This document shows, piece after piece, positions 27,071-63,984 of a DNA stretch of 64,000 nt; the stretch's first letter is position 1, and every line of letters starts with the position of its first letter. A program made the translations under genes and the position numbers. The notes under the pieces were generated by a model, which was given only the letters and a program-made list of their open reading frames with translations, did not search any database and had not been told where the DNA came from. Source of the DNA: Candidatus Levybacteria bacterium RIFCSPHIGHO2_01_FULL_37_17 (GTDB taxonomy: Bacteria; Patescibacteriota; Microgenomatia; Levybacterales; UBA12049); assembly GCA_001782035.1 (NCBI GenBank), contig MFNL01000001.1, forward strand, positions 277,012-341,011, in the 5' to 3' direction.

Positions 27071-27081
27071 AAGAATTATTT

Positions 27082-36858: not shown

Positions 36859-37614
36859 GTGGATAATGTTTATTTAAGCGTTGTTATTCCCTCATATAAC
36901 GAAATCGCAAATCTTCGGAAAGGGACACTAGATAAGGTCCAGCACTTTTTGGAAAAGCAAACTTATTCTTATGAAGTATTAATTGTTGATGATGGCTCAA
37001 CAGATGGAAGCTTAGAGTTTGTAGAAAAGTTCATATTGGAAAATCCCAAGTTCAAAATATTGAAAAATCAGCATTTGGGAAAAGCAGGTGCAGTTACCTC
37101 GGGCATGCTAAATGCAAAAGGAGAACTGCGCCTTTTTACAGATATGGACCAGGCAACTCCGATTGAGGAAGTTAATGAGCTGACCCCTTTTACTAAAAAG
37201 GGATACGACGTGGTAATTGGCTCAAGAAGTTCGCATAGAGAAGGTTCTCCCCTGACTCGTCAATTCATATCATTATCCGCAATACTGTTGCGAAGAGTAC
37301 TCGTTGGCTTGAATGAAATATCGGATACCCAATGCGGATTCAAGTTGTTCACAAGAGATGCGGCAGATTTGCTTTTTAATAAAATAAGCGATATTCATCA
37401 TGGTTTCCATAAGATATCGGGCTCTGCAGTTACAGCAGGTTTTGATGTTGAGCTTTTATATTTAGCAAAAATTGAAGGTTTAAAAGTTAAAGAAGTTCCG
37501 GTCGACTGGCTATATGTTGAGACAAGAAGAGTGAGTCCAGTATCAGATTCTGTTAATGGGTTCTTAGATTTTGTAAGAATAGGTATTAATAGATTTAGGG
37601 GTAAATATAGATGA
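36859..37614 (+). CDS. GT2 glycosyltransferase, Dol-P/Und-P-sugar synthase-like (DPM1/GtrB-like)
   Basis: LSVVIPSYNE...VLIVDDGSTDGS, DxD (TDMD), soluble 251 aa. Confidence 0.8.
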   Translation: MDNVYLSVVIPSYNEIANLRKGTLDKVQHFLEKQTYSYEVLIVDDGSTDGSLEFVEKFILENPKFKILKNQHLGKAGAVTSGMLNAKGELRLFTDMDQATPIEEVNELTPFTKKGYDVVIGSRSSHREGSPLTRQFISLSAILLRRVLVGLNEISDTQCGFKLFTRDAADLLFNKISDIHHGFHKISGSAVTAGFDVELLYLAKIEGLKVKEVPVDWLYVETRRVSPVSDSVNGFLDFVRIGINRFRGKYR

Positions 37615-38798
37615 AATTATTTAAGCTGATAGCGAGTTTATATTTTATTACTCTTGTTTCTTTATTTTTTTACTCTTTTACTCAGGTTGATTTAAGTCTT
37701 ACTCTAACCCAAGCGTCAATCTTCAAAGATATAATTTCCACTCTGCAATATTTGGGGTTTTTTCAGAGGGAACTATCCGCTATAATTTTTGCCCTAATAA
37801 GTTTTTTGCTTTTTTTATTCTATTTCCTTTTTCTTAATCAGTCCAAAAAAATCTCAGGGAAAATGCTTTTTTCATTAATTTGTGGTATCTTTTTCATTCT
37901 AGTTTTATCGTACAACGCTTTTTCTTATGATCTTTTTAATTATATTTTCGATGCCAAAATTTTAACTTTTTATCATCAAAACCCCTATCTTTTCAAGCCG
38001 CTGGATTTTATAGGAGACCCAATGCTTACTTTTATGCGCTGGACTCATAGGGTCTACCCTTATGGTCCAAGTTGGCTAGCTCTTACAGTTCCACTATCAT
38101 TCATAGGATCAAATATTTTTCTTGTGACCTTCTTCTTATTTAAGCTTATGATTGGACTAAGTTTTCTAGGAAGTGCTTTCCTTATTTATAAAATTTCAGA
38201 GTTAGTTAGTCCAGAAAATAAGATATTTAATACTTTATTTTTTGCACTTAACCCATTGGTATTAATAGAAGGGCTTGTTTCTGCGCATAATGATTTTCCT
38301 TTGGTATTTTTTGCCCTGCTTTCTTTCTACCTTTTTATAAGAAAGAAAAAAGTTTTTTCTTTTGTCTCTCTTGCTTTCTCAATTGGTATTAAATATTTAT
38401 CTTTTATACTACTTCCTATTTTTGGATATCTGATGATTTTAGAAAATAAAAAGATTAAGATTAACTGGGATAAAATTTTCCTTTTATCCCTTGCTCTCTC
38501 CTTAGTTACCCTTGCTCTCGTAACTTTTAGAACTAATTTTCAACCATGGTATCTTATATTTCCCATGAGTCTTGCTGCATTTAATGCAAAAAGACCCTAC
38601 GTCTTTCTTCCTGTTATAGTAGCATCTTTATCTATGATTGCCGTTTACTATTTTTATGTACTTCTTACAGATTATGCGCCTAATTATCCTGCAGTAATTA
38701 CAAGAGTTGAGACTTTGGCACTTTTTGCTGTTATTGTTTCTTTTATTATTGGTTTTTTATTTAAAAAAAGATTATTTAAGCTTTTGAATAACAGCTAG
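37611..38798 (+). CDS. polytopic membrane protein, GT-C-like (DUF2029/GT87-like?)
   Basis: ~10 TM helices, loop motifs YPYGP and NPLVLIEGLVSAHND; ATGA overlap with upstream GT2. Confidence 0.45.
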   Translation: MKLFKLIASLYFITLVSLFFYSFTQVDLSLTLTQASIFKDIISTLQYLGFFQRELSAIIFALISFLLFLFYFLFLNQSKKISGKMLFSLICGIFFILVLSYNAFSYDLFNYIFDAKILTFYHQNPYLFKPLDFIGDPMLTFMRWTHRVYPYGPSWLALTVPLSFIGSNIFLVTFFLFKLMIGLSFLGSAFLIYKISELVSPENKIFNTLFFALNPLVLIEGLVSAHNDFPLVFFALLSFYLFIRKKKVFSFVSLAFSIGIKYLSFILLPIFGYLMILENKKIKINWDKIFLLSLALSLVTLALVTFRTNFQPWYLIFPMSLAAFNAKRPYVFLPVIVASLSMIAVYYFYVLLTDYAPNYPAVITRVETLALFAVIVSFIIGFLFKKRLFKLLNNS

Positions 38799-38816
38799 AT
38801 ATTATATAATTCATGT

Positions 38817-40331
38817 ATGGGTTTTATCCGCAAATGGAGAACTGAAATCATTTTTGCGTTGCTTATTGCAGTAGCTTATTTTCTCTCCCGTATTGTACTT
38901 CTTGGTAATCTCCCTATTTTTACAGATGAGGCAATTTACACTAGATGGGCTCAAATAGCATTAAACGATCCCCAGTGGCGTTTTATTTCCCTAACAGATG
39001 GAAAACAACCGATGTTTGTTTGGCTAGCCATGATTTTTATGAAATTTATAGAAGACCCGCTAGTTGCCGCAAGGCTTGTTTCGGTTGCCTCAGGCTTTTT
39101 TACTCTAGTGGGACTTTGGTTTTTAACCTTAGAGCTTTTTAAAAGTAGAAAGGTAGCGTTTATCTCCTCGCTTCTTTATGTCGTCTATCCTTTTGCCGTA
39201 GTGCTTGACCGCATGGCACTATACGACAGTATGGTAGCAACATTTTTTGTTTGGGCGCTTTATTTCTCAGTTCTTTTAGTAAGAAGAATTAGACTAGATA
39301 TTGCCTATACGCTTAGTTTGATTATTGCAGGAGGAATGCTGACTAAAACCGCTAATTTCTTCAGTATATATCTGCTTCCTTTTTTGCTGATCCTTTTTAA
39401 CTTTAGAAAAAAGAATTGGCAGTTTGATTTGAGAAGATTTGTTTTATTTGCCGCTTTCTCAGCTGGCATAGCTTTTTTCTTATACAATGTTTTGCGACTT
39501 TCCCCATTTTTCCATATTATTGATCAAAAGAATGCCGTTTTCGTTTATCCATTCTCAGAGTGGATAAAGCAGCCATTTACTTTTTTCCCTGGAAATCTTT
39601 CAGGACTACTTAACTGGTTGTATGAGTATTTAAAAATTCCAGTCATTGTTTTAATCTTGATTTCACTTGTAAAGTATAAAGAGTTTACGAGAGAGAAATT
39701 ATTGCTTCTTGTTTATTTCTCTGCGCCATTTATTGCGTTGGCCCTCTTTGGAAGACTGGTTTACCCTCGTTATATTTTCTTTATGAGCCTAATGCTTCTT
39801 CCTCTTGCTTCTTTGGGTCTTACATATCTTGTTGATTACGTCATTAAGAAGTATAAAGTTTCAAAAAATTTAGCTTTTTACTTAATCACTGCATTGTTTA
39901 TTGCATATCCTGCTTTTGTTTCATGGCAGTTTATTTTTGATCCTGTAAACGCAAGAATAGCAACAGCGGATAACAGGCAGTATGTAAATGGTTGGCCCGT
40001 CGGATGGGGAGTTAGGGAAAGCGTTGAGTTTTTCAGAAATGAAGCAAAGAACGAAAAGATTTACGTAGCAACAGCTGGAACTTTTGGGCTTCTTCCGGCA
40101 GCTTTAGAGATATATTTAGTTGAGAACAAAAATATTGAGATAAAGGGGCACTGGCCGGTAGATGTATTGCCTAAAGAACTTTTGCAAAAGGCAGAAGATA
40201 TGCCTACCTTTTTAATTACATATCAGAAAGAAAACTTAAATCTAGACGATAACCCAAATTTAAATCTCGTGTTTCAGATAAGACAGGGAAACACAGACTT
40301 TTTTTATAAGGTATTTAGGGTAGAACCATGA
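38817..40331 (+). CDS. ArnT/PMT_2-like GT-C glycosyltransferase (GT39/GT83-like)
   Basis: First extracytoplasmic loop FTDEAIYTRWAQIAL (DE motif), 504 aa polytopic. Confidence 0.65.
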   Translation: MGFIRKWRTEIIFALLIAVAYFLSRIVLLGNLPIFTDEAIYTRWAQIALNDPQWRFISLTDGKQPMFVWLAMIFMKFIEDPLVAARLVSVASGFFTLVGLWFLTLELFKSRKVAFISSLLYVVYPFAVVLDRMALYDSMVATFFVWALYFSVLLVRRIRLDIAYTLSLIIAGGMLTKTANFFSIYLLPFLLILFNFRKKNWQFDLRRFVLFAAFSAGIAFFLYNVLRLSPFFHIIDQKNAVFVYPFSEWIKQPFTFFPGNLSGLLNWLYEYLKIPVIVLILISLVKYKEFTREKLLLLVYFSAPFIALALFGRLVYPRYIFFMSLMLLPLASLGLTYLVDYVIKKYKVSKNLAFYLITALFIAYPAFVSWQFIFDPVNARIATADNRQYVNGWPVGWGVRESVEFFRNEAKNEKIYVATAGTFGLLPAALEIYLVENKNIEIKGHWPVDVLPKELLQKAEDMPTFLITYQKENLNLDDNPNLNLVFQIRQGNTDFFYKVFRVEP

Positions 40332-41977
40332 AATTTCTAAAAAAGAATTTATTGCTTGTACTTCTTTCCTTAATTTTTGCTCTAAGTCTTTTTTTAAGGC
40401 TTTATCAACTAGAGTCTTTTCCAGTTGGATTTCACCAGGATGAAGCAGCCTTAGGTTACAACGCATATTCACTTCTTTTAACAGGGAAGGATGAAAATGG
40501 ACAAAGTTTACCATTGTACATCAATAAGTTTGGTGATAATAATCCCAGCGGATATCATTATCTAGCTATTTTATCTGTAAAATTTTTTGGACTTAATGAG
40601 TTTTCTACCAGGCTTCCCGCAGCTCTTGCGGGGGCAATGCTTATTCTAGCAATATATTTTCTTAGCTTTACAATTTCTAAAAACACCTTGATTAGTTTGT
40701 TTGCCGCTTTTTTTAGTGCCGTTGCCCCATGGAGCATAGTGCTTTCTCGAACTAGTGCTGAAACAATAGTTGCATTATTTTTTGCAATATTAGGTTTTGC
40801 TTTATTTATTCATTTTTTTAGAAACAAGAACATTTTATTTTTATCCGGAAGTGTTTTGTTGTGGATAGCATCGTTTTTAACATATCCAGCACCTCGTTTA
40901 TATGTACCTCTTTTAGTTTTAGCAACGGGAATATATGTATTTAAATATATAAGAGAGAAAAAATTACTAGTACCTTCGTTTGTTTCTTTCACAATACTTA
41001 TTGCTGTTCTTCTATTTCTTATTCTAGGAGTATCAGGAGGTATCGGTCGATTCTCTCAGGTAAGTATATTTACCCATCCTGAAACGAAGCTTGTTTTAGA
41101 AGAGCAAATCAGAGAAGACGGAATGGAGCAAATTCCTCCAACAGTTGTTAGAGCTTTTCACAATAAAATTATCAATCATTCTTATACATTTTTACTAAAT
41201 TATTCTTCTTATTTTTCCCTGGAGTATCTTTTCTTGAAAGGCGGACAACCATTACTCCTTAACGTGCCCCACATAGGGCTATTGTATTTAGTAGAGCTGC
41301 CTTTCATATTAATAGGAATTTATTCAGTAATAAGATCGAAAAATCACTTCTCCAAGCTTCTTTTGATTTGGCTTCTGCTTGCTCCAGCTACTGCAGCTAT
41401 AACATTTGATGATAGTCCAAATGTAAGAAGGGCTTTGGTAATGTTTCCTTTTATAGAAATTCTTGCAGGATACGGAATGCTTTTTTCTATTAAAAAAATT
41501 ACAGAAGAGAAGAATAAAAAAATATTTATTTCTATCTTTATGTTATTTCTTCTGTACAATTCTGTATATTTCCTACATCAATATTTTGTTCACACAAAAG
41601 TTCATAAACCATGGTTTAGAGATGTTGGAGTAAAAGAGATGGTAGCGGAGATAAAAAATTCATATCAAAACTATGACAAAGTTATTGTCACAAATGCTAC
41701 TAGAGGAATACATCCTTTAATCCTCTTTTACATGAAATATGATCCTGTGACGTATCAAAAAGAAGGTTCAGCCAAAGACGCGGATTATAGCGGATTTGGA
41801 AAATTCTTTTTTGTTCCACAGGACTGCCCGTCAGTAAATAGGGATCCTGATTTTCCTGATTTTAAATCTGCAATTTTTATAGATAAAGGAGTCTGCCCGT
41901 TTATTGAGGGGAAAAACTACGAAATAATATATCGAGGTGATAAAACCCCCGTGTATAGAATTGTCTATGAAGATTAA
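40328..41977 (+). CDS. ArnT/PMT_2-like GT-C glycosyltransferase, paralog A1
   Basis: GFHQDEAALGYNAYSLLLTGKDENGQSLPLYINKFGDNNPSGYHY loop-1 motif; 549 aa. Confidence 0.75.
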   Translation: MKFLKKNLLLVLLSLIFALSLFLRLYQLESFPVGFHQDEAALGYNAYSLLLTGKDENGQSLPLYINKFGDNNPSGYHYLAILSVKFFGLNEFSTRLPAALAGAMLILAIYFLSFTISKNTLISLFAAFFSAVAPWSIVLSRTSAETIVALFFAILGFALFIHFFRNKNILFLSGSVLLWIASFLTYPAPRLYVPLLVLATGIYVFKYIREKKLLVPSFVSFTILIAVLLFLILGVSGGIGRFSQVSIFTHPETKLVLEEQIREDGMEQIPPTVVRAFHNKIINHSYTFLLNYSSYFSLEYLFLKGGQPLLLNVPHIGLLYLVELPFILIGIYSVIRSKNHFSKLLLIWLLLAPATAAITFDDSPNVRRALVMFPFIEILAGYGMLFSIKKITEEKNKKIFISIFMLFLLYNSVYFLHQYFVHTKVHKPWFRDVGVKEMVAEIKNSYQNYDKVIVTNATRGIHPLILFYMKYDPVTYQKEGSAKDADYSGFGKFFFVPQDCPSVNRDPDFPDFKSAIFIDKGVCPFIEGKNYEIIYRGDKTPVYRIVYED

Positions 41978-43595
41978 AAAGCATTTCTTATTCCTTCTTT
42001 TAATTCTTGCCATAGCTTCAATATTGCGTCTATGGCAACTGGGAGTAAATCCTCCGAGTCTTGATTGGGACGAAGCCTCACTGGGTTACAATGCCTATTC
42101 AATTCTTAAGACCGGAGCAGATGAATATGGGAATTTTCTTCCAACTTCCATAAGGTCTTTCAATGATTATAAACCTGCAGCATATGTATATTTAACAATT
42201 CCATCTGTTTTTATATTCGGGCTCAACGAATTTGCCGTTCGTCTTCCGTCCGCAGCCTTGGGGATACTAACTGTTCTTTTCACATATCTTTTAGTCAAAG
42301 AACTATTCAAAGCTAAAAATTTACAATTTGCCGAAGCCGCAGCGCTTGTCAGCGCATTGCTACTGGCAATTTCTCCCTGGCATCTACAATTTAGTAGGTC
42401 AGCTTTTGAAGGAAACGTTGGGGTTTTCTTTTTTGTCGGAGGAATATATTTTTTACTTAAAGCTTTAAATAAAGGATTATTTTTTGCGCCTGCTTTTATT
42501 TTTTTCGTACTTACTTTTTACTCCTATCATAGTTTTCGGTTGGTAACTCCATTGTTTCTGTTGTTTTCCATATTTTATTTTAGAAAGGAAATATTGGAGA
42601 AAAAAAAGCATTTTCTTGTTTCCGCACTGTTTGCCTTGATCTTAACCCTGCCTTTATTGCTTAGTATTTTTACCAACTTAGCCCGTTTTTCAAGCGTTAC
42701 CATTTTTAATTCTTCAGGAATTCTCGATACATCTATAAAGCAGCTGGAACTAGATAGAGAAAGAGAAAATGTTCTTGGAGAGATTTTCCATAACAGAAGA
42801 GTGGTCTACGCGCAGAACATTTTAGATGGCTATCTTTCACATTTTGATCCTGTTTTCCTTTTTCTAAGGGGAGATTCGGTGGAACGGCATCATGCAATAG
42901 GAATGGGAATGCTTTATATAATTGAACTTCCATTTTTACTAGTGGGAATTTTTTATCTTTCGCGAAAAAAAGATACCGGAAGGCTTATTTTACTCATCTG
43001 GCTCTTAGCTGCACCTGCCGCAGCTTCCTTAGCAACGGGGACTCCCCATGCAATACGCGCTATTGCCATGATTCCTGTATTGCAAGTTATTACGGCTATT
43101 GGCATTGTCGCTTTCTACGAGTGGAATAAAAAGGCAAAATTAGGAAAATTTATTATTTTTACATTTTCCGCTTTGTTTTTATTAAATGCTCTTTACTATT
43201 TGGATATGTATTATGTCCACACACCTATTGAAAATTCAAAATACTGGCAATATGGATACAGACAAGTGTTTGAATATGCAAAGGAAAGGCAAGATAAGTA
43301 TGACAAAATAATCGTAACTTACAAATACGACCAACCATACATCTATTATTTGTTTTTTAATAAAATTGAACCGTCTTGGTACCAGAAGAATTGGGATTAT
43401 AACAATGATGGAGAAATAGAAAGAATGACCAGAATTATCGGAAAATACGAATTTAGAAATATTGATTACGCAGTAGATTCAAAGGCAAAAAATGTTTTGT
43501 TAATCGGGACACCTGATGAGATATCGCAGAATGCAAGCATAAAAGAAATAAATTTTTTGGATGGAACCGTTGCATTTAGGATAGCAGAAAGTTAA
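41967..43595 (+). CDS. ArnT/PMT_2-like GT-C glycosyltransferase, paralog A2
   Basis: LDWDEASLGYNAYSILKTGADEYGNFLPTSIRSFNDYKPAAYVY; start set at ATG overlapping upstream stop (ORF track 41937). Confidence 0.75.
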   Translation: MKIKKHFLFLLLILAIASILRLWQLGVNPPSLDWDEASLGYNAYSILKTGADEYGNFLPTSIRSFNDYKPAAYVYLTIPSVFIFGLNEFAVRLPSAALGILTVLFTYLLVKELFKAKNLQFAEAAALVSALLLAISPWHLQFSRSAFEGNVGVFFFVGGIYFLLKALNKGLFFAPAFIFFVLTFYSYHSFRLVTPLFLLFSIFYFRKEILEKKKHFLVSALFALILTLPLLLSIFTNLARFSSVTIFNSSGILDTSIKQLELDRERENVLGEIFHNRRVVYAQNILDGYLSHFDPVFLFLRGDSVERHHAIGMGMLYIIELPFLLVGIFYLSRKKDTGRLILLIWLLAAPAAASLATGTPHAIRAIAMIPVLQVITAIGIVAFYEWNKKAKLGKFIIFTFSALFLLNALYYLDMYYVHTPIENSKYWQYGYRQVFEYAKERQDKYDKIIVTYKYDQPYIYYLFFNKIEPSWYQKNWDYNNDGEIERMTRIIGKYEFRNIDYAVDSKAKNVLLIGTPDEISQNASIKEINFLDGTVAFRIAES

Positions 43596-43608
43596 ACTTT
43601 AAAAGTTA

Positions 43609-50431: not shown

Positions 50432-50432
50432 A

Positions 50433-51350: not shown

Positions 51351-51353
51351 CTA

Positions 51354-53014: not shown

Positions 53015-53247
53015 TTCTTATTTTCCCAGAATTTTAATTCGGAAAACTTCATTCGCTTATTGGCAAAATAGAATAGATATGCAAGTTCCAAAATTCCCAA
53101 TGTATTTAAAACTAAAATAGCAACGAACCAATTCCTCTGTTTTAAATTTGCTGCTCTCCAAAGAGCTATTCCTTTCCAAAGCAATGTCCAAAGATAAGCG
53201 ACAAAAAGCAGAAAAGAGGGAAGCTGGGGCAATATAAATGATTCCAT
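53011..53247 (-). CDS. small two-TM membrane protein, DUF5652-like
   Basis: LWTLLWKGIALWRAANLKQRNWFVAILVLNTLGILELAYLF resembles DUF5652 consensus from memory; only minus-strand gene inside the GT array. Confidence 0.4.
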   Translation of the reverse strand: MESFILPQLPSFLLFVAYLWTLLWKGIALWRAANLKQRNWFVAILVLNTLGILELAYLFYFANKRMKFSELKFWENKN

Positions 53248-53311
53248 AGATAAATTATAAATAAATATCTCTTCTTATGCAACGAGGGATGAAAGTTGAT
53301 AAAATAAATAT

Positions 53312-56634: not shown

Positions 56635-56636
56635 TT

Positions 56637-57536: not shown

Positions 57537-57564
57537 TGAATCCCGTTAAAGACGGAATTAGCTT

Positions 57565-58275: not shown

Positions 58276-58277
58276 AG

Positions 58278-59936
58278 ATGTTTAAAAAATTTCTAAATTG
58301 GAAACTGTTGCTTTTTTCGATTACGATATTAGCGGCAATATTGCGATTTTATCAGTTGGGAAGTAATCCCCCTTCTTTAACATGGGACGAAGTGGCATGG
58401 GGATACAATGCTTACTCATTATCAGTAGATGCAAAAGATGAATTTGGAAAATTTCTTCCCATAACATATCTTGAGTCTTTTGGCGATTTTAAACCTCCGG
58501 CTTACGCTTATTTAACAGTAATACCGGTAATGTTTTTTGGTCTTAGCGAATTTGCTGTAAGGTTTCCTTCAGCACTTTTTGGAACGTTAACGGTTCTTCT
58601 TACTTACTTCTTAGTTATTCGTATTTTCCCAAATTCCAAGAACAAGGAATTAGTAGCAATATTATCTGCTCTTTTTCTTGCCATATCGCCTTGGCATATT
58701 ATGCTCTCCCGTGCTGCTTTTGAAGCAAACGTTGCCAACTTTTTTATAGTAACAGGAATATGGGCCTTTTTAGGTGGAGTACAAGGAAAAAAATGGCTTT
58801 TGCTTGTCTCAGCGGTTTCTTTTGCCTTGTCCTTTTACGCTTTTAATACTGCAAGAATTATTTCGCCTCTTTTGGTAATTCTTCTTGCATTTGTTTTCAG
58901 GAAAAGATTGTTCGAGCTAAAAAAAACCACACTTTATTCAATATTACTTGGACTTATAATTGTTGTCCCATTAGTGCCATTTTTATTTACTCCACAAGCA
59001 CAGCTTCGGTTTAAAGAAGTTAATATTTTTACAGATTCACAGGTGATTGAAACCGCAAATAAGTATATAGAGCAAAACGGTGGAGCAGCATGGTCAAACA
59101 TAATGCATAACAGAAGAATTTTATTCTCTCTTGAGTATGTTAAGCATTATCTCGACCATTTTTCTCCTGCATTTCTTTTTATAAGCGGAGATGAGAATCC
59201 TAAGTTTTCAGTTCAAGATGTCGGACAGATGTACATTTGGGATATTTTATTCCTTGTTACGGGTATAATTTTTCTATTCAAAAGAAAAGAAGGACTGTAC
59301 TACATAATTCCGCTTTGGTTGTTGGTAGGAATTATTCCTGCTGCAACAGCCAGAGAAACTCCACACGCACTTCGTATTGAAACAACACTTCCCACCTGGC
59401 AAATCATAACAGCTTATGGTTTTGTAGTATTTTTGGAATGGGCGAGAAAATTAAATATAAAAATTAGAGATTATAAATTAAAAGCAGCTTATGCACTTCC
59501 TCTCATAGTCTTCTTCTTTTTATTTATTAACGTTCTATACTTCCTACACAATTACTACGCGCATTATCCAAAAACCTGGTCTGGAGAGTGGCAATACGGC
59601 TATAAGGAGGCAATAGACTACGTTAAATCAGTTGAGGAAAATTACGATAAGATTGTAGTAACAACTGCTCTAGGAAGGCCGTATGCTTACTTTCTCTTCT
59701 ACAATAAAACAAATCCAGAATTATTTAGAAAAACTGCTGTTGTAGAAAGAGATCCGTTCGGTTTTGTTACAGTGAATAGTTTTGGAAAATATCATTTTTC
59801 GGGGCAATTTGATCAATTCGAACAAGACGGTGATAAAAACCTATATATAAATATTGCAGCACCTGATTCAGCTGATATTAAAAAGACTTTTTATCTATTA
59901 AATGGAAACCCTGTTTTAGTTGCGTATGAATTTTAA
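58278..59936 (+). CDS. ArnT/PMT_2-like GT-C glycosyltransferase, paralog A3
   Basis: LTWDEVAWGYNAYSLSVDAKDEFGKFLPITYLESFGDFKPPAYAY. Confidence 0.75.
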   Translation: MFKKFLNWKLLLFSITILAAILRFYQLGSNPPSLTWDEVAWGYNAYSLSVDAKDEFGKFLPITYLESFGDFKPPAYAYLTVIPVMFFGLSEFAVRFPSALFGTLTVLLTYFLVIRIFPNSKNKELVAILSALFLAISPWHIMLSRAAFEANVANFFIVTGIWAFLGGVQGKKWLLLVSAVSFALSFYAFNTARIISPLLVILLAFVFRKRLFELKKTTLYSILLGLIIVVPLVPFLFTPQAQLRFKEVNIFTDSQVIETANKYIEQNGGAAWSNIMHNRRILFSLEYVKHYLDHFSPAFLFISGDENPKFSVQDVGQMYIWDILFLVTGIIFLFKRKEGLYYIIPLWLLVGIIPAATARETPHALRIETTLPTWQIITAYGFVVFLEWARKLNIKIRDYKLKAAYALPLIVFFFLFINVLYFLHNYYAHYPKTWSGEWQYGYKEAIDYVKSVEENYDKIVVTTALGRPYAYFLFYNKTNPELFRKTAVVERDPFGFVTVNSFGKYHFSGQFDQFEQDGDKNLYINIAAPDSADIKKTFYLLNGNPVLVAYEF

Positions 59937-61581
59937 GACCTCAAGGATACTTCTTTTTCTTATTGTTTTGGTTGCAGCTGTTTTAAGACTGTGGCAGCTT
60001 GGAAGCATTCCTCTTTCACCAAACTGGGATGAGGTCTCGTTGGGTTATAATGCCTATTCAATTCTTTTGACAGGGAAAGACGAATATGCAAGTTTTCTGC
60101 CTCCGGTTCTTCGTTCTTTCGATGACTATAAGCCGGCTCTATATTCATATCTTGCGATTCCTTCAGTAGCATTTTTTGATCTCAATACATTTGCGACCAG
60201 ACTGCCATCCGCTTTATTTGGAATTATCAGTGTAGTCGCAGTTTACTTTTTAGTTAAAGAATTATTTCCAAAACTAAATCCTAAAAACAAAATTAATAGA
60301 GAAGCTTTAGCTCTTTTAAGCGCAATGTTTCTTGCGATTTCTCCCTGGGCTATTCAGTTTTCAAGGGTAGCCTATGAGGCAAATGTTGGTGTTACTTTAA
60401 ATATTCTAACAGTGTTATTTTTCCTAAAAGGACTTAAAAAGCCATACCTTTTAATGTTTAGTGCAGCCTTTGCTGCGCTTGCTATTTATGCATACCAAAG
60501 TGAAAAGGTTTTCGTGCCGCTTCTGGTTTTATTACTTGTTCTAGCTTATCGGAAGGATCTTTTTGCTGTAGGAAAAAAATATATAATTTCAGCAGCTATT
60601 CTCGGATTTTTTCTGCTTTCTCCAATGTTTTTTTATTTATCTACCAATAGCGGTGCTTTTTTAAGGGTGACAGCAACCAGTGTTTTTTCATACAAATCAG
60701 AATTTCTTCCGACTTATAATGCAAGACTTGTTGAAGACAGCCAAAGAGGCGACGCGATAGGAGCACTTCTTGAAAACAAGCGGATAGTTTACGCAAAAAA
60801 AGTTGCAGAGGGGTATCTCTCGCATTTTAGCCCGAACTGGCTTTTTACAAGTGGAGATATACAAAGACACCATGCACCAAATATGGGAAACTTATATTTT
60901 TTTGAACTTCCATTGATTCTTCTTGGCATTTATTTTTTGATCTTTGGAAACGTAAACAAAAAAACAAAACTCTTAATTTTTGGATGGCTTCTTCTTGCAC
61001 CTCTTCCTGCTTCAATAACGGTTCAGGTACCTCATTCAGTACGCACCTTAAATTTCTTGCCTACATGGCAAATTTTAACAGCTTTAGGGGTTGTTTATGC
61101 CTATCAGCTTATAAGTAATTTCCGTTTTAGAAAAATAGCGATTGGGAGCTTTTTGGTTCTTGCTGTTTTTAATGTTTTATTTTATTTAAATATGTATTTT
61201 GTTCAACTCAATTACTTTCACGGATACGAATGGCAGTACGGATGGAGACAGGCCGTTGAATATGTGAAAGAGCATGGCGGAAAATACGATCAAATACTTA
61301 TCACAGACGCAGAGCCCTTGGAAAAATCATATATGTTTTTTTTATTTTATTTGAAATATACTCCTTCGGAGTATCAGACAATAGGCAAATATAGCTCTGG
61401 AGGTTTTGAGTCTCACCATAGTTTTGACAAATATTCTTTCAGACCAATTGACTGGGAAAAAGATTCATTACTCCCTGACAGCCTTTTTATCGGAAAACCA
61501 ACTGAGATACCTGAGTCGAGAGCAATTAAAACGATCTATAATCCAGATGGCACTGCCGCTATAAGAATAGCTGGAACTTAA
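59926..61581 (+). CDS. ArnT/PMT_2-like GT-C glycosyltransferase, paralog A4
   Basis: PNWDEVSLGYNAYSILLTGKDEYASFLPPVLRSFDDYKPALYSY; start set at ATG overlapping upstream stop (ORF track 59920). Confidence 0.75.
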   Translation: MNFKTSRILLFLIVLVAAVLRLWQLGSIPLSPNWDEVSLGYNAYSILLTGKDEYASFLPPVLRSFDDYKPALYSYLAIPSVAFFDLNTFATRLPSALFGIISVVAVYFLVKELFPKLNPKNKINREALALLSAMFLAISPWAIQFSRVAYEANVGVTLNILTVLFFLKGLKKPYLLMFSAAFAALAIYAYQSEKVFVPLLVLLLVLAYRKDLFAVGKKYIISAAILGFFLLSPMFFYLSTNSGAFLRVTATSVFSYKSEFLPTYNARLVEDSQRGDAIGALLENKRIVYAKKVAEGYLSHFSPNWLFTSGDIQRHHAPNMGNLYFFELPLILLGIYFLIFGNVNKKTKLLIFGWLLLAPLPASITVQVPHSVRTLNFLPTWQILTALGVVYAYQLISNFRFRKIAIGSFLVLAVFNVLFYLNMYFVQLNYFHGYEWQYGWRQAVEYVKEHGGKYDQILITDAEPLEKSYMFFLFYLKYTPSEYQTIGKYSSGGFESHHSFDKYSFRPIDWEKDSLLPDSLFIGKPTEIPESRAIKTIYNPDGTAAIRIAGT

Positions 61582-61603
61582 GTATAATTAGTATAATAAC
61601 AGT

Positions 61604-62404
61604 ATGAAATTATCAATTGTTCTTTCAACGTTTAACGAAGAAAAAAACATGCCGGATTTTTTTGAAAACGTCAAAGATATTGCTGACGAAGTCATTTTAG
61701 TGGATGGAAGCTCTAAAGACAAAACAGTTGCAATTGCAAAGGAATACGGGGCTAAAATAAAAATTACAGATAACCCTCCAATATTTTTAATAAATAGGCA
61801 AAAAGCAATTGATATGGCAGATGATGGATGGCTTCTTAATCTAGATGCCGATGAAAGATTGTCACCAGAGCTTAAACAAGAGATAAGAGATAAGATAAAA
61901 GACATAAGTAAGCCTCTTAAATCTTCTGACTTAAATCATACTTCTGAAATCGCCGGTTACTGGATCCCCAGAAAAAATTTATTTTTAGGAAGGTTTTTAA
62001 TGAAAGGCGGACAATACCCCGACTATCAGCTAAGACTGTACAGGAAAGACAAAGTTCATTTTAAACTCGAGGACGTACACGAGCAGGCAATAGTAGAGGG
62101 TAAGACAGAATATTTACAAAACGCGATGCTGCATTATCCCTATTCTAATTTTTCCCACTATCTTAAAAAATGGAATGTTTATAATAACGCTTTAGCAGAC
62201 CAGATTACCAAAGAGCAAAAAACTAGAAATAGATTTCAAAAGGTCATCTATGGTTTTATGTACCTTTTGATAAAACCTTCCCACTGGTTGTTCACTACTT
62301 ATTTAAGGCATAAAGGTTTTATGGACGGCTGGCAGGGTTTTGTCTTCTCATTTTTTTCAGCACTTCGCTTTCCGGTTTCATACGTTTTATATTTGAGCAA
62401 ATGA
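61604..62404 (+). CDS. GT2 glycosyltransferase (YWIPRKN...PDYQLRL subfamily)
   Basis: LSIVLSTFNEEKNM...VILVDGSSKDKT, DAD (LDADER). Confidence 0.8.
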   Translation: MKLSIVLSTFNEEKNMPDFFENVKDIADEVILVDGSSKDKTVAIAKEYGAKIKITDNPPIFLINRQKAIDMADDGWLLNLDADERLSPELKQEIRDKIKDISKPLKSSDLNHTSEIAGYWIPRKNLFLGRFLMKGGQYPDYQLRLYRKDKVHFKLEDVHEQAIVEGKTEYLQNAMLHYPYSNFSHYLKKWNVYNNALADQITKEQKTRNRFQKVIYGFMYLLIKPSHWLFTTYLRHKGFMDGWQGFVFSFFSALRFPVSYVLYLSK

Positions 62405-63984
62405 GTTTTAATAAGCTTTTGAAGCACCGTTTGTTTGTGCCTGCATTATTTCTACTGGTGTTTTTAGCTGCCTTTCTTCTTAGATCCTACATGTTTATTA
62501 ACGGTGATTTTTTTTATTTGGTAGACCAGGCAAGAGACTTACTTTTGGCTAAGTCGGTTGCGGTAGATCAGGATTTAACTCTTATAGGAGGACGTACGGG
62601 CTTTGGGGGGTTGTTCCATGGAGTTTTATGGATATACGTTATAGTTCCCTTTTTTATCTTGGCGGGAGGAAACCCATATTTTAGCCTTGTTCCGCTTTTT
62701 CTTTTGGTCAATTTAGGAATTATTGTAGCCGGTTTTATTGTAGGATGGAAGCTTTATAACAAATGGATAGGATTGCTTGTTGCTTTTTTTCTCACTATAT
62801 CAGGCGAGCTTGTCGCATCTGCTCTAATTACCACCAACGCCCAGGTACTTCCCATTGTGTTTCTTTTATATCTTTTTTCAATTGTTAAATTTATCAGAGG
62901 GGAGGAAAAATATTTTGTACTTGCAATCTTTTCAATAGGGCTAGGTTTCCAATTTGAGTCAGCATTTTCTGTTCTTCTTGTGCCGGTAACTGTTTTAGCT
63001 ATTTTTTTTGCTGGAAAAATTCCGAAGATTAAATACTTATTTTTAGGGTTTCTAAGCGCTCTCTTGGCAGTATCCACTTTTATTCTTTTCGATCTAAGGC
63101 ATCAGTTCTTAATGACATCTTCTGCGTTTAGATTATTCACAAATACACATAAACCGCTTCCCGGTTACGAGGAGTATTCGGATATTATATTTAGAGTAGG
63201 TAATAGAGTAAGTGCTTTGTGGGACAGTTTTTTCTCGCCTTTATATGAAAAGAATCTTTTTTTAGAAATATTATTAATTTCTATCATCTTTTCTGCAATT
63301 TTCTTTTTAACAAGAAAAATTAGAACCTCAAAAATGGATAAGTTTGATAAAGAGTTTATTTTCCTTTTATTTTCTCCCGTCTTGATCTTTGGTTTTTATA
63401 TAATTTACCCTTTTCCTTTATGGTCTCACTATCTTCTTCCAATTGCTGTAATTTTTTCTTTTATATTAACCTTATCAATAAAAAGCATTTGGCAAACTTC
63501 ATCACTGCGTATCTTAGCTCTGGCCTTTCTTTTATTGGCAGCTTTACCGCCTTTGAATTATTTCAGTACGGTATATCTTCAAAATCAAGAATATAAATCA
63601 GTAAGCGACGGAACTTACATAAATCAAAAAAAGGTAGCAGAATGGGTTGTCGCCGACTCGATGAACAAGGGCTTCTCACATTTTGTTTATTCACCGGGCA
63701 TTCTAACTTATAATATGGATTATCTTCTTTGGTACTTTGCAAAAGAAAAAAACAGCAAACAACCCGAGAATATAAAATCAATCGATACTTATTTAATATT
63801 GTATCAGCCACGCCAGGGTGATGAAAACGCGCACATGTTTTGGAAAGAAAATGTAATTAGAACAGAAGCGATACCTGTGAGAATAAAAAGATTTGACAGT
63901 GGCATTATTGTTGAGAAAATAGACCTTTCTAAGGATAAACTAGAGGTAGACCCAAATTATTTTCAGAATTTAATTTTCAGATGA
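62401..63984 (+). CDS. polytopic membrane protein, putative GT-C-type glycosyltransferase
   Basis: 527 aa, >10 TM helices, first loop FYLVDQARDLLLAKS; ATGA overlap with upstream GT2. Confidence 0.4.
   Translation: MSFNKLLKHRLFVPALFLLVFLAAFLLRSYMFINGDFFYLVDQARDLLLAKSVAVDQDLTLIGGRTGFGGLFHGVLWIYVIVPFFILAGGNPYFSLVPLFLLVNLGIIVAGFIVGWKLYNKWIGLLVAFFLTISGELVASALITTNAQVLPIVFLLYLFSIVKFIRGEEKYFVLAIFSIGLGFQFESAFSVLLVPVTVLAIFFAGKIPKIKYLFLGFLSALLAVSTFILFDLRHQFLMTSSAFRLFTNTHKPLPGYEEYSDIIFRVGNRVSALWDSFFSPLYEKNLFLEILLISIIFSAIFFLTRKIRTSKMDKFDKEFIFLLFSPVLIFGFYIIYPFPLWSHYLLPIAVIFSFILTLSIKSIWQTSSLRILALAFLLLAALPPLNYFSTVYLQNQEYKSVSDGTYINQKKVAEWVVADSMNKGFSHFVYSPGILTYNMDYLLWYFAKEKNSKQPENIKSIDTYLILYQPRQGDENAHMFWKENVIRTEAIPVRIKRFDSGIIVEKIDLSKDKLEVDPNYFQNLIFR

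What the first reader, a model, noticed from the sequence alone, without database searches (positions are those of the whole stretch)
36859..63984. 27-kb array of polyprenol-phosphate sugar synthases (GT2) and 10+ GT-C membrane transferases
About 26 consecutive + strand genes. Many have 4-nt or 1-nt stop/start overlaps. Only one small minus-strand gene interrupts them.
At least 9 GT2 enzymes have the NE...DDGS/DNGS...DxD layout of Dol-P/Und-P-sugar synthases.
They sit next to 5 ArnT/PMT_2-like GT-C genes, 2 PTPS-related giant membrane proteins, a YfhO-like protein, 2 further GT-C-like membrane proteins, a Wzx-like flippase, a GT4 and an FAD oxidoreductase.
Known lipid-linked extracytoplasmic glycosylation systems pair one GT2 with one GT-C. 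Examples are ArnC/ArnT, GtrB/GtrC, CsbB/YfhO and Dpm1/Pmt.
Having about ten such pairs in one operon-like array is far beyond those systems. It suggests combinatorial decoration of a surface substrate, such as the LPXTG/FN3 proteins, an S-layer, pili or a wall polymer, rather than a single O-antigen pathway.
No polymerase/ligase pair (Wzy/WaaL), initiating phosphoglycosyltransferase or ABC exporter was recognised. That argues against a conventional Wzy-dependent capsule locus.
Basis: partly seen in the sequence, partly recalled or inferred. Interest (0 to 1): 0.8.

Follow-up and report, generated by a model that had tools for sequence, protein, structure and literature searches.

The report
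Conserved GT-C glycosylation supercluster in Levybacteria
A tiny-genome groundwater bacterium (Candidatus Levybacteria) has a tightly packed, lineage-conserved block of 22 genes, ten of which are membrane enzymes that attach sugars outside the cell, which points to an unusually elaborate surface sugar coat that I could not find described and that is almost wholly annotated as 'hypothetical'.

Summary
The array is real. Window 36859-63984 holds 21 plus-strand genes and one small minus-strand gene. It is 99% coding, with gaps of -41 to +28 nt apart from one 297-nt gap.

Ten genes encode GT-C-type membrane glycosyltransferases from seven subfamilies: four ArnT/PMT-like paralogues, one distant PMT_2, two PTPS_related, one YfhO, one ALG3/PimE-like and one divergent. 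The rest are eight GT2, one GT4, a Wzx-like flippase and a UDP-galactopyranose-mutase-like flavoenzyme.

The 'ten GT2/GT-C pairs' reading fails. Only three GT2 (g01, g09, g17) look like polyprenyl-phosphate-sugar synthases. Three are GmaR/SunS-like and two are rhamnosyltransferase/EpsD-like.

The cluster runs at least 10 kb past the window end and adds two more GT-C-like genes. Its gene order is conserved in other Levybacteria. Among 54 related Microgenomates loci of about 21.6 kb, the median is 8 GT-C-like genes (range 6-13) and one synthase.

The best model is that a few lipid-phosphate sugar donors feed many non-redundant GT-C enzymes that build or branch an envelope glycan outside the membrane, the same logic as mycobacterial arabinogalactan/LAM. 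Glycosylation of surface proteins is a serious rival.

No Wzy, WaaL, priming transferase or ABC exporter was found. I rate this a new variant of a known kind.

The parts
36825..36852 (+). Promoter-like site (TAGACA-16-TATAAT with an upstream TG) in the 140-nt Lon/g01 gap. It may be the start of the first operon.
   Evidence: This is the best match in the region (11 of 12). The total number of promoter-like sites does not exceed the shuffle expectation, so the evidence is weak.
36859..37614 (+). g01: GT2 of 251 aa with no TM helix. S family, a Dpm1/ArnC/PgfS-like candidate polyprenyl-phosphate-sugar synthase.
   Evidence: Pfam Glycos_transf_2, 83 bits. NCBIfam PgfS, ArnC and PpgS (positions 4-202 of 226), all far below the equivalog cut-offs. 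27-29% identical to g17 and g09.
37611..38798 (+). g02: 395-aa membrane protein with about 10 TM helices. GT-C fold of the ALG3/PIG-M/PimE type (M family).
38817..40331 (+). g03: 504-aa GT-C, PMT_2 (P family), with a 'TDE' motif after TM1.
   Evidence: Pfam PMT_2 42.3 bits against a cut-off of 26.1. Profile-profile P-A 99.2%.
40328..41977 (+). g04: 549-aa GT-C, A-family paralogue.
   Evidence: Pfam PMT and PMT_2 hits are below threshold. It is 32-33% identical to g05, g18 and g19 over most or all of its length, E 1e-58 to 1e-66. The DE motif is invariant.
41937..43595 (+). g05: 552-aa GT-C, A family (ArnT/PMT-like).
   Evidence: Pfam PMT_2 46.4 bits and PMT 33.1 bits, both above their cut-offs. 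The A-family profile hits ArnT 5ezm (E 1.6e-4) and STT3 (E 7e-4).
43609..45036 (+). g06: 475-aa FAD enzyme resembling eukaryote-type UDP-galactopyranose mutase (U).
   Evidence: NCBIfam NF005548 436 bits against a cut-off of 389, named 'hypothetical protein'. PDB: T. cruzi UGM 4dsg, E 4e-19, residues 7-451 against 11-451. A. fumigatus and bacterial UGMs follow. There is no Pfam GLF hit.
45036..46643 (+). g07: 535-aa GT-C, PTPS_related (T family).
   Evidence: Pfam PF10131 35.5 bits against a cut-off of 26.4. 32% identical to g08.
46619..48277 (+). g08: 552-aa GT-C, PTPS_related (T family), with a C-terminal beta-sandwich and a final TM helix.
48274..48990 (+). g09: GT2 of 238 aa with no TM helix. 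S family, a candidate polyprenyl-phosphate-sugar synthase.
   Evidence: Pfam 98 bits. NCBIfam ArnC 87.6 bits over positions 5-216 of 316, plus PgfS, AglJ and PpgS.
48977..50431 (+). g10: 484-aa MOP/Wzx-type flippase.
   Evidence: Pfam Polysacc_synt_3, E 4e-50. It lies directly after an S gene in 16 related loci.
50433..51350 (+). g11: GT2 of 305 aa, b family (GmaR/SunS-like GT-A domain plus a C-terminal hydrophobic helix).
   Evidence: Pfam. The b-family profile hits GmaR 22ao at E 2.9e-32 over the whole GT domain and SunS at 1e-18. DPMS, GtrB and ArnC match only over the N-terminal ~100 residues.
51354..52262 (+). g12: GT2 of 302 aa, rhamnosyltransferase-like (r family).
   Evidence: NCBIfam TIGR01556 rhamnosyltransferase 72.7 bits, below its cut-off. 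Weak GlfT1 hit of 27.7 bits.
52259..53014 (+). g13: GT2 of 251 aa, b family.
   Evidence: 34% identical to g11.
53011..53247 (-). 78-aa DUF5652 small membrane protein, the only minus-strand gene in the array. Role unknown.
   Evidence: Gene call. Pfam PF18893, E 1e-20.
53312..54364 (+). g14: GT4 (GT-B fold) of 350 aa.
   Evidence: Pfam Glycos_transf_1 84 bits.
54364..56634 (+). g15: YfhO-family GT-C of 756 aa. A TTG start at 54334 would give 766 aa.
   Evidence: Pfam YfhO 77.2 bits against a cut-off of 28.5. Gene call. Profile-profile T-Y 99.5%.
56637..57536 (+). g16: GT2 of 299 aa, EpsD/rhamnosyltransferase-like (r family).
57565..58275 (+). g17: GT2 of 236 aa with no TM helix. S family, and the best candidate polyprenyl-phosphate-hexose synthase.
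   Evidence: Pfam 133 bits. NCBIfam AglJ 120.7 bits over residues 3-233. PDB Pyrococcus DPMS 5mlz, E 3e-16, residues 1-233 against 23-248.
58278..59936 (+). g18: 552-aa GT-C, A family.
   Evidence: Pfam PMT_2 46.4 bits and PMT 42.7 bits, both above their cut-offs.
59926..61581 (+). g19: 551-aa GT-C, A family.
   Evidence: Pfam PMT_2 40.1 bits. 42% identical to g05.
61604..62404 (+). g20: GT2 of 266 aa, b family.
   Evidence: 37% identical to g11.
62401..63984 (+). g21: 527-aa GT-C-like protein with many TM helices (Q family).
   Evidence: Pfam PMT_2 reaches only 19.6 bits, below its cut-off. Profile-profile A-Q 98.2%, Q-T 96.2%, P-Q 95.1%.

Best explanation
This is the core of a conserved envelope-glycan assembly supercluster of at least 37 kb in Candidatus Levybacteria (Microgenomates, CPR).

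Proposed mechanism:
1. Three soluble Dpm1/ArnC-like GT2 enzymes (g01, g09, g17, plus a fourth-candidate GT2 just past the window end) load monosaccharides from nucleotide sugars onto polyprenyl phosphate at the inner face of the membrane. This step is inferred from homology.
2. MOP/Wzx-type flippases (g10, plus a second one downstream) move lipid-linked sugars or oligosaccharides across the membrane. This is inferred. The conserved synthase-flippase adjacency resembles GacI-GacK.
3. Ten GT-C transferases from seven old, non-redundant subfamilies transfer those few donor sugars onto extracytoplasmic acceptors, each presumably with its own acceptor or linkage. The GT-C fold is shown here. Donors and acceptors are inferred.
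4. The remaining GT2 (b and r families) and the GT4 act in the cytoplasm and build the lipid-linked core or primer of the glycan. The UGM-like flavoenzyme g06 and neighbouring epimerases supply unusual sugars, possibly a furanose.

The acceptor is most likely a wall- or membrane-anchored heteropolysaccharide that is elongated and branched outside the cell. In logic this is the counterpart of mycobacterial arabinogalactan/LAM assembly: few lipid donors, many GT-Cs and no Wzy. It is not ten independent GT2/GT-C decoration pairs.
For: GT-C identity:
- Seven of the ten pass Pfam thresholds.
- g04 is a full-length paralogue of the A family.
- g21 is linked to the other families by profile-profile comparison at 95-98%.
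- Invariant acidic residues follow TM1.

Donor-to-transferase ratio:
- Only g01, g09 and g17 align over their full length with DPMS, AglJ, PpgS or ArnC. The b family is nearest to GmaR/SunS instead.
- The window has 3 S for 10 GT-C. The 80 related loci have 83 S for 596 GT-C-like genes.

Non-redundancy and conservation:
- Paralogues are 32-42% identical to each other, while positional orthologues in other Levybacteria are 45-74% identical and in the same order.
- In another Levybacteria genome the two halves of the cluster lie on one contig (L014 and L066).

Operon-like packing.

Polysaccharide flavour:
- There are 5 non-synthase GT2 and 1 GT4 here.
- Downstream lie an epimerase, 2 GT4, 2 GT2 (one of them the synthase-like d05), a second Wzx and a PS_pyruv_trans gene.
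- g06 is UGM-like.

No Wzy, WaaL, PGT or ABC exporter was found in ~74 kb. The S-W adjacency is conserved in 16 loci. A Wzx-type flippase for a C55-P-sugar is known (GacK, PMC8035078).
Against: - No biochemical or expression data exist. Donors, acceptors and sugar identities are all inferred.
- No priming phosphoglycosyltransferase and no LCP-type ligase was seen in the ~74 kb examined, so the start and the anchoring of a polymer are unaccounted for. They may lie elsewhere in the genome.
- The A family passes Pfam's PMT threshold (g05, g18) and has the PMT/ArnT-type DE motif, which fits protein O-glycosylation equally well.
- The nearest solved relatives of the b-family GT2 are protein or peptide glycosyltransferases.
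- All S-family scores are far below the NCBIfam equivalog cut-offs, so 'synthase' is a family-level call only.
- The b family has a C-terminal hydrophobic helix and often lies next to T genes (T-b adjacency 39 times). It could be a second, unrecognised kind of lipid-sugar synthase, which would raise the donor count.
- The related loci were selected for containing an A-family gene and were classified only by BLAST against the window proteins.
Confidence: 0.45

Rival explanations
1. This is a protein O-glycosylation machine. The PMT/ArnT-like A-family paralogues, and perhaps the other GT-Cs, transfer lipid-phosphate sugars onto Ser/Thr-rich regions of secreted or surface proteins such as sortase substrates, pilins or S-layer proteins. 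Each paralogue would have its own substrate range, as yeast PMT1-7 do with a single Dpm1, or as the streptococcal PgfS/PgfM systems do.
For: - g05 and g18 exceed Pfam's gathering score for PMT (PF02366), and the DE motif is invariant.
- g01 and g09 have PgfS among their best NCBIfam hits.
- The b-family GT2 are closest to GmaR (flagellin O-GlcNAc transferase) and SunS (peptide S-glycosyltransferase).
- A sortase, a 322-aa Ser/Thr-rich protein and a 1360-aa LPXTG protein with a Thr/Pro-rich N-terminal region lie 5-9 kb upstream.
- GT-C-dependent glycosylation of Ser/Thr-rich disordered regions of membrane-associated proteins has been reported in streptococci (abstract of PMC12041528).
Against: - It does not explain the five non-synthase GT2, three GT4, two Wzx-type flippases, the UGM-like enzyme and the pyruvyltransferase in the same conserved cluster.
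- The T, Y and Z families have a glycan-enzyme-like beta-sandwich (modelled for g08), and YfhO relatives act on teichoic acids (PMC5836110 and PMC8035078).
- The link to the upstream surface proteins is proximity only, with Lon and CorA in between.
- This reading could hold for a subset of the GT-Cs alongside the best explanation.
Confidence: 0.3
2. This is the first reader's model: about ten independent GT2/GT-C decoration pairs, each a three-component system with its own lipid-sugar donor, placed together to decorate a surface substrate combinatorially.
For: - Some local adjacencies look like pairs: g01-g02 (S-M, seen 9 times in related loci), g08-g09 (T-S, 14 times), g17-g18, g20-g21, and T-b (39 times).
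- A classical pair does exist elsewhere in the window: a GT2 fused to a GtrA_DPMS_TM domain at 3879-5009 followed by a PMT_2 gene at 4988-6586.
- If the b family were an unrecognised kind of synthase, the donor count would rise to 6.
Against: - Only 3 of the 8 GT2 are synthase-like.
- The ratio is 3 to 10 here and 83 to 596 across 80 loci. Runs of up to 7 tandem A genes occur with only one or two synthases in the same ~21.6-kb locus.
- No GtrA-type flippases are present in the array.
- Gene order is stable across species rather than shuffled as a combinatorial island would be.
Confidence: 0.1
3. This is an ordinary Wzx/Wzy-dependent capsule, EPS or O-antigen-type locus whose Wzy, priming transferase and export genes were missed or lie just outside the stretch examined.
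For: There are two Wzx-like flippases, several GT2 and GT4, sugar-nucleotide enzymes and a pyruvyltransferase. Two multi-TM proteins downstream (385 aa and 663 aa) have no Pfam hit.
Against: - No Pfam hit to Wzy_C, O-antigen polymerase, Bac_transf, Glycos_transf_4 (WecA/MraY-type), Wzz or ABC exporters in ~74 kb.
- The unassigned membrane proteins link to GT-C families: R-P 96.9%, Z-Y 98.6%.
- Base composition matches the flanks, and gene order is conserved across species. Serotype-variable islands behave differently.
- Ten GT-Cs have no place in a standard Wzy pathway.
Confidence: 0.05

Closest known systems
Multi-component (three-component) transmembrane glycosylation systems: GtrA/GtrB/GtrV, ArnC/ArnT, CsbB/GtcA/YfhO, GacI/J/K/L, L. 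lactis CsdAB/CD/EF (review PMC8035078)
   Same: The enzyme classes are the same: a GT-A (GT2) enzyme that makes a C55-P-sugar, a flippase, and a multi-TM GT-C that transfers the sugar outside the membrane. A YfhO-family member (g15) and PMT_2/ArnT-like members are present. A Wzx-type flippase lies next to a synthase, as with GacK.
   Different: Known systems pair about one synthase with one GT-C and add a single decorating sugar. Here 3 synthase-type GT2 accompany 10 GT-Cs of seven subfamilies in one co-oriented block, or 4 and 12 with the downstream part. No GtrA-type flippase is present. The synthases lack TM segments. Extra cytoplasmic GT2 and GT4 enzymes are interleaved.
Corynebacterineae arabinogalactan / LM / LAM assembly: Ppm1 and DPA donors feeding EmbA/B/C, AftA-D, MptA-D, PimE and Pmt (established knowledge, not tested here)
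   Different: The proteins are not orthologous. There are no Arabinose_trans/Emb or AftA Pfam hits, and no DPA pathway genes (UbiA, DprE1/E2) were seen. The organism is a roughly 1-Mb CPR bacterium with no mycolate envelope. The GT-Cs here are clustered far more densely: 10 in 27 kb.
Protein O-mannosyltransferases (GT39): fungal PMT1-7 with a single Dpm1, and actinobacterial Pmt
   Same: The A family reaches Pfam PMT thresholds and has the loop-1 Asp-Glu motif. Several paralogues share few donors. Thr/Pro-rich surface proteins are encoded nearby.
   Different: No MIR domain or PMT_4TMC hit was found. Instead there is a distinct C-terminal soluble domain of about 130 aa. By profile against solved structures the closest match is ArnT (E 1.6e-4), not PMT. 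Acceptors are unknown.
Wzx/Wzy-dependent polysaccharide loci
   Same: MOP flippases, GT2 and GT4 genes, sugar-nucleotide enzymes and a pyruvyltransferase are present.
   Different: No Wzy, priming PGT, chain-length regulator or exporter was found. GT-C genes dominate the locus. Gene order is conserved across species.

Membership tests
GT-C superfamily (Pfam clan CL0111) | Polytopic membrane protein with 8-13 or more TM helices | tested here: met
   Hydropathy gives 9-16 segments for all ten proteins. The AF2 models of g02 and g08 are all-helical bundles.
GT-C superfamily (Pfam clan CL0111) | Sequence membership of a clan family (PMT, PMT_2, PTPS_related, YfhO, GT87 and others) | tested here: met
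   g03, g05, g07, g08, g15, g18 and g19 are above the Pfam gathering scores. g04 qualifies by full-length paralogy. g21 qualifies by profile-profile comparison at 95-98%. g02 has only weak MptA/MptB hits. PTPS_related is listed in CL0111 in PMC7801869.
GT-C superfamily (Pfam clan CL0111) | GT-C fold by structure comparison | tested here: met
GT-C superfamily (Pfam clan CL0111) | Conserved acidic residue(s) in the first extracytoplasmic loop | tested here: met
   A family: D45-E46 invariant. T family: H34-D35 invariant. g02: D27 invariant. g03 has 'TDE' and g21 has 'VDQARD' in their own sequences. Topology was not tested experimentally.
GT-C superfamily (Pfam clan CL0111) | Uses a polyprenyl-(di)phosphate-linked sugar donor | not testable with these tools
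   This needs enzymology.
Polyprenyl-phosphate sugar synthases (Dpm1, DPMS, GtrB, ArnC, AglJ, PpgS type GT2) | Homology across the whole catalytic domain, including the part after the DxD motif, to characterised synthases | tested here: met
   Met only for g01, g09 and g17. g17 matches DPMS 5mlz over residues 1-233 (E 3e-16) and AglJ over 3-233. g09 matches ArnC positions 5-216. g01 matches PpgS positions 4-202. All scores are below the equivalog cut-offs.
Polyprenyl-phosphate sugar synthases (Dpm1, DPMS, GtrB, ArnC, AglJ, PpgS type GT2) | The same full-domain homology, applied to the other five GT2 (g11, g12, g13, g16, g20) | tested here: not met
   The b-family profile matches DPMS, GtrB and ArnC only over the N-terminal ~100 residues. 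Its best solved relatives are GmaR (E 2.9e-32) and SunS. g12 and g16 are best matched by rhamnosyltransferase, EpsD and MftF models.
Polyprenyl-phosphate sugar synthases (Dpm1, DPMS, GtrB, ArnC, AglJ, PpgS type GT2) | Membrane anchoring (C-terminal TM helices or a GtrA-like domain) or a membrane partner | tested here: not met
   No TM segment is predicted in g01, g09 or g17. Soluble members exist (human DPM1, the Ppm1 catalytic domain; established knowledge), so this does not exclude them.
Three-component transmembrane glycosylation system | About one synthase per GT-C, plus a GtrA-type flippase | tested here: not met
   There are 3 synthase-type GT2 for 10 GT-Cs. No GtrA (PF04138) gene lies in the array. 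Only the separate pair at 3879-6586 has a GtrA_DPMS_TM domain.
Wzx/Wzy-dependent polysaccharide locus | Priming phosphoglycosyltransferase (WbaP/Bac_transf or WecA/Glycos_transf_4) | tested here: not met
   None was found by Pfam in the window or in the 10 kb downstream. The rest of the genome was not searched.
Wzx/Wzy-dependent polysaccharide locus | Wzy polymerase or WaaL-type ligase | tested here: not met
   No Wzy_C or O-antigen-polymerase Pfam hit was found. The unassigned membrane proteins resolve as GT-C-like.
Wzx/Wzy-dependent polysaccharide locus | Wzx (MOP) flippase | tested here: met
   g10 hits Polysacc_synt_3 at E 4e-50. A second copy lies downstream.
UDP-galactopyranose mutase | Full-length homology to characterised UGMs, and the GLF domain | tested here: inconclusive
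   The T. cruzi UGM match is full length at E 4e-19, and other UGMs fill the top 17 PDB hits. TIGR00031 reaches 50.9 bits, well below its 303-bit cut-off. There was no Pfam GLF hit. Active-site residues were not checked.
Protein O-mannosyltransferase (GT39) | PMT domain with the loop-1 DE motif | tested here: met
   g05 scores 33.1 bits and g18 42.7 bits against a cut-off of 22.7. The DE motif is invariant. ArnT (GT83) shares these features.
Protein O-mannosyltransferase (GT39) | PMT_4TMC and MIR modules, and protein acceptors | tested here: not met
   No such Pfam hits were found. The nature of the acceptor cannot be tested here.

The most novel reading that the evidence does not exclude
Microgenomates (Levy-, Gottesman-, Roizman- and Woesebacteria) may build their main envelope glycan almost entirely outside the membrane. 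The builder would be a Wzy-independent assembly line of 8-13 clustered GT-C enzymes fed by one to four lipid-phosphate sugar donors. This would be an independent evolutionary counterpart of mycobacterial arabinogalactan/LAM synthesis in organisms with genomes of about 1 Mb. Within it, the uncharacterised PTPS_related family (PF10131) would be the transferase of a conserved epimerase / UGM-like / synthase / PTPS_related module. That module would use a polyprenyl-phosphate furanose such as Galf, a donor I could not find described.
Probability: 0.2. Interest if true: 0.8.

Novelty: new variant of a known kind. Interest (0 to 1): 0.6.

Why it matters
CPR/Patescibacteria are described as metabolically stripped down, and one comparative study reports reduced polysaccharide metabolism in them (PMC7137472). 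Here, one conserved locus of at least 37 kb, and over 40 kb in a related genome, goes to extracytoplasmic glycosylation. If Levybacteria genomes are about 1 Mb, which is my estimate and was not measured here, that is several percent of the genome.

The density of GT-C genes (10 in 27 kb, and up to 13 in 21.6 kb in relatives) exceeds anything I know from model bacteria.

The surface is where these mostly episymbiotic cells meet hosts, phages and minerals. This glycan machinery is therefore a strong candidate for what determines attachment and host range.

The locus also gives genomic context, and so testable hypotheses, to families of unknown function: PTPS_related, the CPR ArnT/PMT-like A family, and the g02 and g21 families. 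In the public record 9 of the 10 proteins whose annotation I looked up are named 'hypothetical protein', and a g02 homologue carries the same name.

Tried and rejected
- Relaxed Pfam scans of g02, g21 and the two downstream membrane proteins added nothing. The precomputed accession PF26314 on g02 homologues is missing from the local Pfam copy, so I could not identify it.
- I considered that the array might be a horizontally acquired, variable island. I rejected this because GC matches the flanks and gene order is conserved across species.
- The promoter and terminator scan was not informative overall, because counts equal the shuffle expectation.
- Ten literature searches found no description of CPR GT-C arrays or of lipid-phosphate Galf donors. 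One of them was badly framed and wasted. The only related remark was '29 genes of glycosyl transferases' in one Microgenomates genome (PMC7143001).
- The first MAFFT run timed out and was repeated with faster settings.

Full report
WHAT IS THERE

ORF listing, Pfam scans and the gene calls on identical metagenome contigs agree. Window 36859-63984 holds 21 co-oriented plus-strand genes and one 78-aa minus-strand gene (DUF5652, 53011-53247). The block is 99% coding. Junctions run from -41 to +28 nt, with five 4-nt and two 1-nt overlaps. The exception is the 297-nt gap that holds the DUF5652 gene. The best promoter-like site in the region lies in the 140-nt gap between Lon and the first gene, but the scan as a whole is no better than shuffled sequence. 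GC content (0.33-0.37) matches the rest of the window.

The source is Candidatus Levybacteria bacterium RIFCSPHIGHO2_01_FULL_37_17 (Microgenomates/CPR, Rifle aquifer), locus tags A2798_01810 to A2798_01915. Of the ten array proteins whose annotation I looked up, nine are 'hypothetical protein' and g17 is 'glycosyl transferase'. g02 and g08 are also 'hypothetical protein'.

INVENTORY

GT-C-type membrane proteins, ten in all:
- g03 is PMT_2.
- g04, g05, g18 and g19 form one paralogous 'A' family. They are 32-42% identical. g05 and g18 also pass Pfam's PMT threshold.
- g07 and g08 are PTPS_related (PF10131).
- g15 is YfhO.
- g21 has only a sub-threshold PMT_2 hit.
- g02 has no Pfam hit in the local copy and weak MptA/MptB hits in NCBIfam.

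AlphaFold models of g02 (pLDDT 88.6, pTM 0.90) and g08 (pLDDT 89.1, pTM 0.91) settled the fold:
- For g02, the top hits are ALG3 19.2, PIG-M 19.1, ALG6 17.2, ArnT 16.2 and PimE 15.3. No Wzy- or WaaL-type protein appears among the 60 listed hits.

Invariant acidic residues follow TM1 in each aligned family. PMC7801869 lists PTPS_related in Pfam's GT-C clan with function unknown.

Other genes:
- g10 is a MOP/Wzx flippase (E 4e-50).
- g14 is a GT4.
- g06 is an FAD enzyme. Its best solved relatives are UDP-galactopyranose mutases: T. cruzi 4dsg over the full length at E 4e-19, then fungal and bacterial UGMs. It passes only an NCBIfam model named 'hypothetical protein' and has no Pfam GLF hit. I therefore call it UGM-like and do not claim it is a UGM.

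THE GT2 GENES ARE NOT ALL LIPID-SUGAR SYNTHASES

There are eight GT2 genes, in three groups.

1. The S family (g01, g09, g17) is 236-251 aa with no TM helix. These align end to end with characterised polyprenyl-phosphate-sugar synthases. g17 matches Pyrococcus DPMS 5mlz over residues 1-233 (E 3e-16) and AglJ (120.7 bits). g09 matches ArnC positions 5-216. g01 matches PgfS, ArnC and PpgS.

2. The b family (g11, g13, g20) shares only the N-terminal ~100 residues with DPMS, GtrB and ArnC. A family profile hits Listeria GmaR across the whole GT domain (E 2.9e-32), followed by SunS.

3. The r family (g12, g16) resembles rhamnosyltransferase, EpsD and MftF-type GT2.

The synthase-to-GT-C ratio is therefore 3 to 10, not about 1 to 1.

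THE ARRAY IS LARGER THAN THE WINDOW

On contigs identical to the window (11598 of 11600 bases in the overlap) the block continues with these genes:
- a GalE-like epimerase;
- a 385-aa protein with 11 TM helices (R family, GT-C-like by profile);
- a GT4;
- a second Wzx;
- a 246-aa GT2 whose best match among the window proteins is the S family (d05);
- another GT4;
- a 663-aa membrane protein on the minus strand (Z family, YfhO/PTPS-like);
- a GT2;
- a PS_pyruv_trans gene.

That makes 12 GT-C-like genes in about 37 kb.

A separate classical module sits at the start of the window: Ugd, three epimerase/dehydratase genes, a GT2 fused to a GtrA_DPMS_TM domain (3879-5009) and a PMT_2 gene (4988-6586).

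No priming phosphoglycosyltransferase, Wzy, WaaL, Wzz, LCP ligase or ABC exporter appears anywhere in the ~74 kb examined.

CONSERVATION

A scan of species-representative genomes with the A-family alignment found 557 loci. By record title, most of the best 80 are Microgenomates or unclassified Patescibacteria. About 30 are labelled 'uncultured Gammaproteobacteria' (or Pseudomonadales), one Bacteroidota and one Paceibacterota, although they show the same gene order and a similar level of identity to the window proteins.

I classified their ORFs by BLAST against the window proteins. The 54 loci of more than 20 kb (about 21.6 kb each) carry a median of 8 GT-C-like genes (range 6-13) and a median of 1 S-type GT2. 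Over all 80 loci there are 596 GT-C-like genes, 83 S, 72 b and 33 r.

Other Levybacteria keep the same order: g01-g02-g03-(Y)-g04-g05-g07-g08-g09-g10-g11-g12-g13, and then g15 through the downstream genes. Each gene is most similar to its positional counterpart (45-74%), which is more than the paralogues resemble each other. In one genome both halves lie on a single contig (L014 and L066). The paralogues are therefore old and individually retained.

Gottesmanbacteria show a variant with six or seven tandem A genes followed by the module e-U-S-T-b-4-S-r.

Recurrent adjacencies are A-A (168), T-b (39), S-T (20), U-S (17), e-U (17), S-W (16), T-S (14) and S-M (9).

Two caveats apply. The loci were chosen because they contain an A gene, and the classification is by best BLAST hit only.

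HOW IT MOST LIKELY WORKS

Shown:
- ten GT-C-fold or GT-C-family proteins;
- three synthase-like GT2;
- operon-like packing;
- deep conservation;
- absence of Wzy-pathway hallmarks in the stretch examined.

Inferred:
- The S enzymes charge polyprenyl phosphate with a few different sugars.
- Wzx-type flippases move lipid-linked sugars outward. The conserved S-W adjacency recalls GacI/GacK, where a Wzx-type protein flips a C55-P-sugar (PMC8035078).
- The many non-redundant GT-Cs each install a specific linkage on extracytoplasmic acceptors.
- The b and r GT2 and the GT4 build the cytoplasmic core.

Because few donors serve many GT-Cs, the closest functional analogy is the Corynebacterineae arabinogalactan/LM/LAM pathway, not GtrB/GtrV-type decoration pairs. 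I rest this on established knowledge.

RIVALS

Protein O-glycosylation is a serious alternative (0.3) and could be true for a subset of the GT-Cs. The A family passes PMT thresholds and has the DE motif. PgfS is among the best hits of g01 and g09. The b family is nearest to protein or peptide glycosyltransferases. A sortase, a Ser/Thr-rich 322-aa protein and a 1360-aa LPXTG protein with a Thr/Pro-rich N-terminal region lie 5-9 kb upstream.

It would gain ground if the b family turned out to be a new kind of lipid-sugar synthase, since T-b adjacency is frequent.

A conventional Wzx/Wzy locus gets 0.05.

COMPARISON WITH WHAT IS KNOWN, AND NOVELTY

All the enzyme classes are known, and so is the principle of extracytoplasmic glycosylation from lipid-phosphate sugars. 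What differs is the scale and the organisation: 10 to 13 GT-Cs of up to eight subfamilies in one conserved, co-oriented block, in genomes usually described as minimal.

Ten full-text searches found no description of this. The nearest remark is '29 genes of glycosyl transferases' in one Microgenomates genome (PMC7143001). Another comparative paper stresses reduced polysaccharide metabolism in Patescibacteria (PMC7137472). Two recent Patescibacteria papers do not mention glycosyltransferases. The library is incomplete, so I may have missed prior mentions.

I rate this a new variant of a known kind, with interest 0.6.

The most novel reading still open is a Wzy-independent GT-C assembly line with a conserved epimerase / UGM-like / synthase / PTPS_related module using a polyprenyl-phosphate furanose donor. 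I give it a probability of about 0.2. I found no literature on such a donor, though the one search on this mostly returned 'UDP-Galf' matches and the one review I then checked does not mention lipid-linked donors.

Noticed in passing
window 2-6586: A separate sugar-activation and lipid-sugar module sits at the start of the window. It comprises UDP-glucose dehydrogenase (truncated at the window start), three epimerase/dehydratase genes (one on the minus strand and strongly GDP-mannose-4,6-dehydratase-like), a 376-aa GT2 fused to a GtrA_DPMS_TM domain (3879-5009), a PMT_2 GT-C (4988-6586) and a DUF202 gene. It is a classical one-synthase/one-GT-C pair, Arn-like in layout.
   Followed up: partly
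window 26492-32122 (minus strand): Three surface-related genes lie together: a sortase (26492-27070), a 322-aa signal-peptide protein with a Ser/Thr-rich stretch and a C-terminal TM helix (27082-28050), and a 1360-aa DUF11/SpaA-repeat protein (28040-32122). The last has a Thr/Pro-rich N-terminal region and a C-terminal LPATGE sorting signal. They are possible O-glycosylation substrates. This stretch also has higher GC (0.42) than the rest of the window.
   Followed up: partly
window 53011-53247 (minus strand): A 78-aa DUF5652 small membrane protein is the only gene on the opposite strand, and it splits the array into two putative operons. It might be a small membrane partner of the soluble synthases, analogous to GacJ. 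That idea is speculation.
   Followed up: no
L001 11599-21584 (continues from window 63999 onward): The cluster goes on past the window end with an epimerase, a 385-aa GT-C-like protein (motif 'EVPPFGKYL'), a GT4, a second Wzx, a 246-aa GT2 that best matches the S family, another GT4, a 663-aa YfhO/PTPS-like protein on the minus strand, a GT2 and a polysaccharide pyruvyltransferase.
   Followed up: partly
window 43609-45036 (g06) versus loci L009, L014, L047, L012, L045: The UGM-like gene is missing at this position in the syntenic Levybacteria loci. Yet it is 58-61% identical to the copies in Gottesmanbacteria loci, more than the flanking genes are (about 30-50%). This suggests lateral acquisition or unusually strong constraint.
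   Followed up: no
loci L012, L016, L018, L020 and about 25 others: Many public MAG records titled 'uncultured Gammaproteobacteria', and single ones titled 'Pseudomonadales' and 'Bacteroidota', carry loci whose gene order and level of identity to the window proteins resemble those of named Levy- and Gottesmanbacteria. Their taxonomic labels look wrong.
   Followed up: no
window 37611-38798 (g02) and its homologues P0001-P0120: The protein database's precomputed annotation assigns PF26314 to all listed g02 homologues. The local Pfam-A copy returns no hit even at E 10. I could not determine which family the accession refers to.
   Followed up: partly
window 41937-41977 and 46619-46643: The overlaps between g04 and g05 (41 nt) and between g07 and g08 (25 nt) are unusually long and depend on a GTG start and an upstream ATG start. 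Internal ATG starts, such as MKIKK... in g05, would shorten them. The true starts are uncertain.
   Followed up: no
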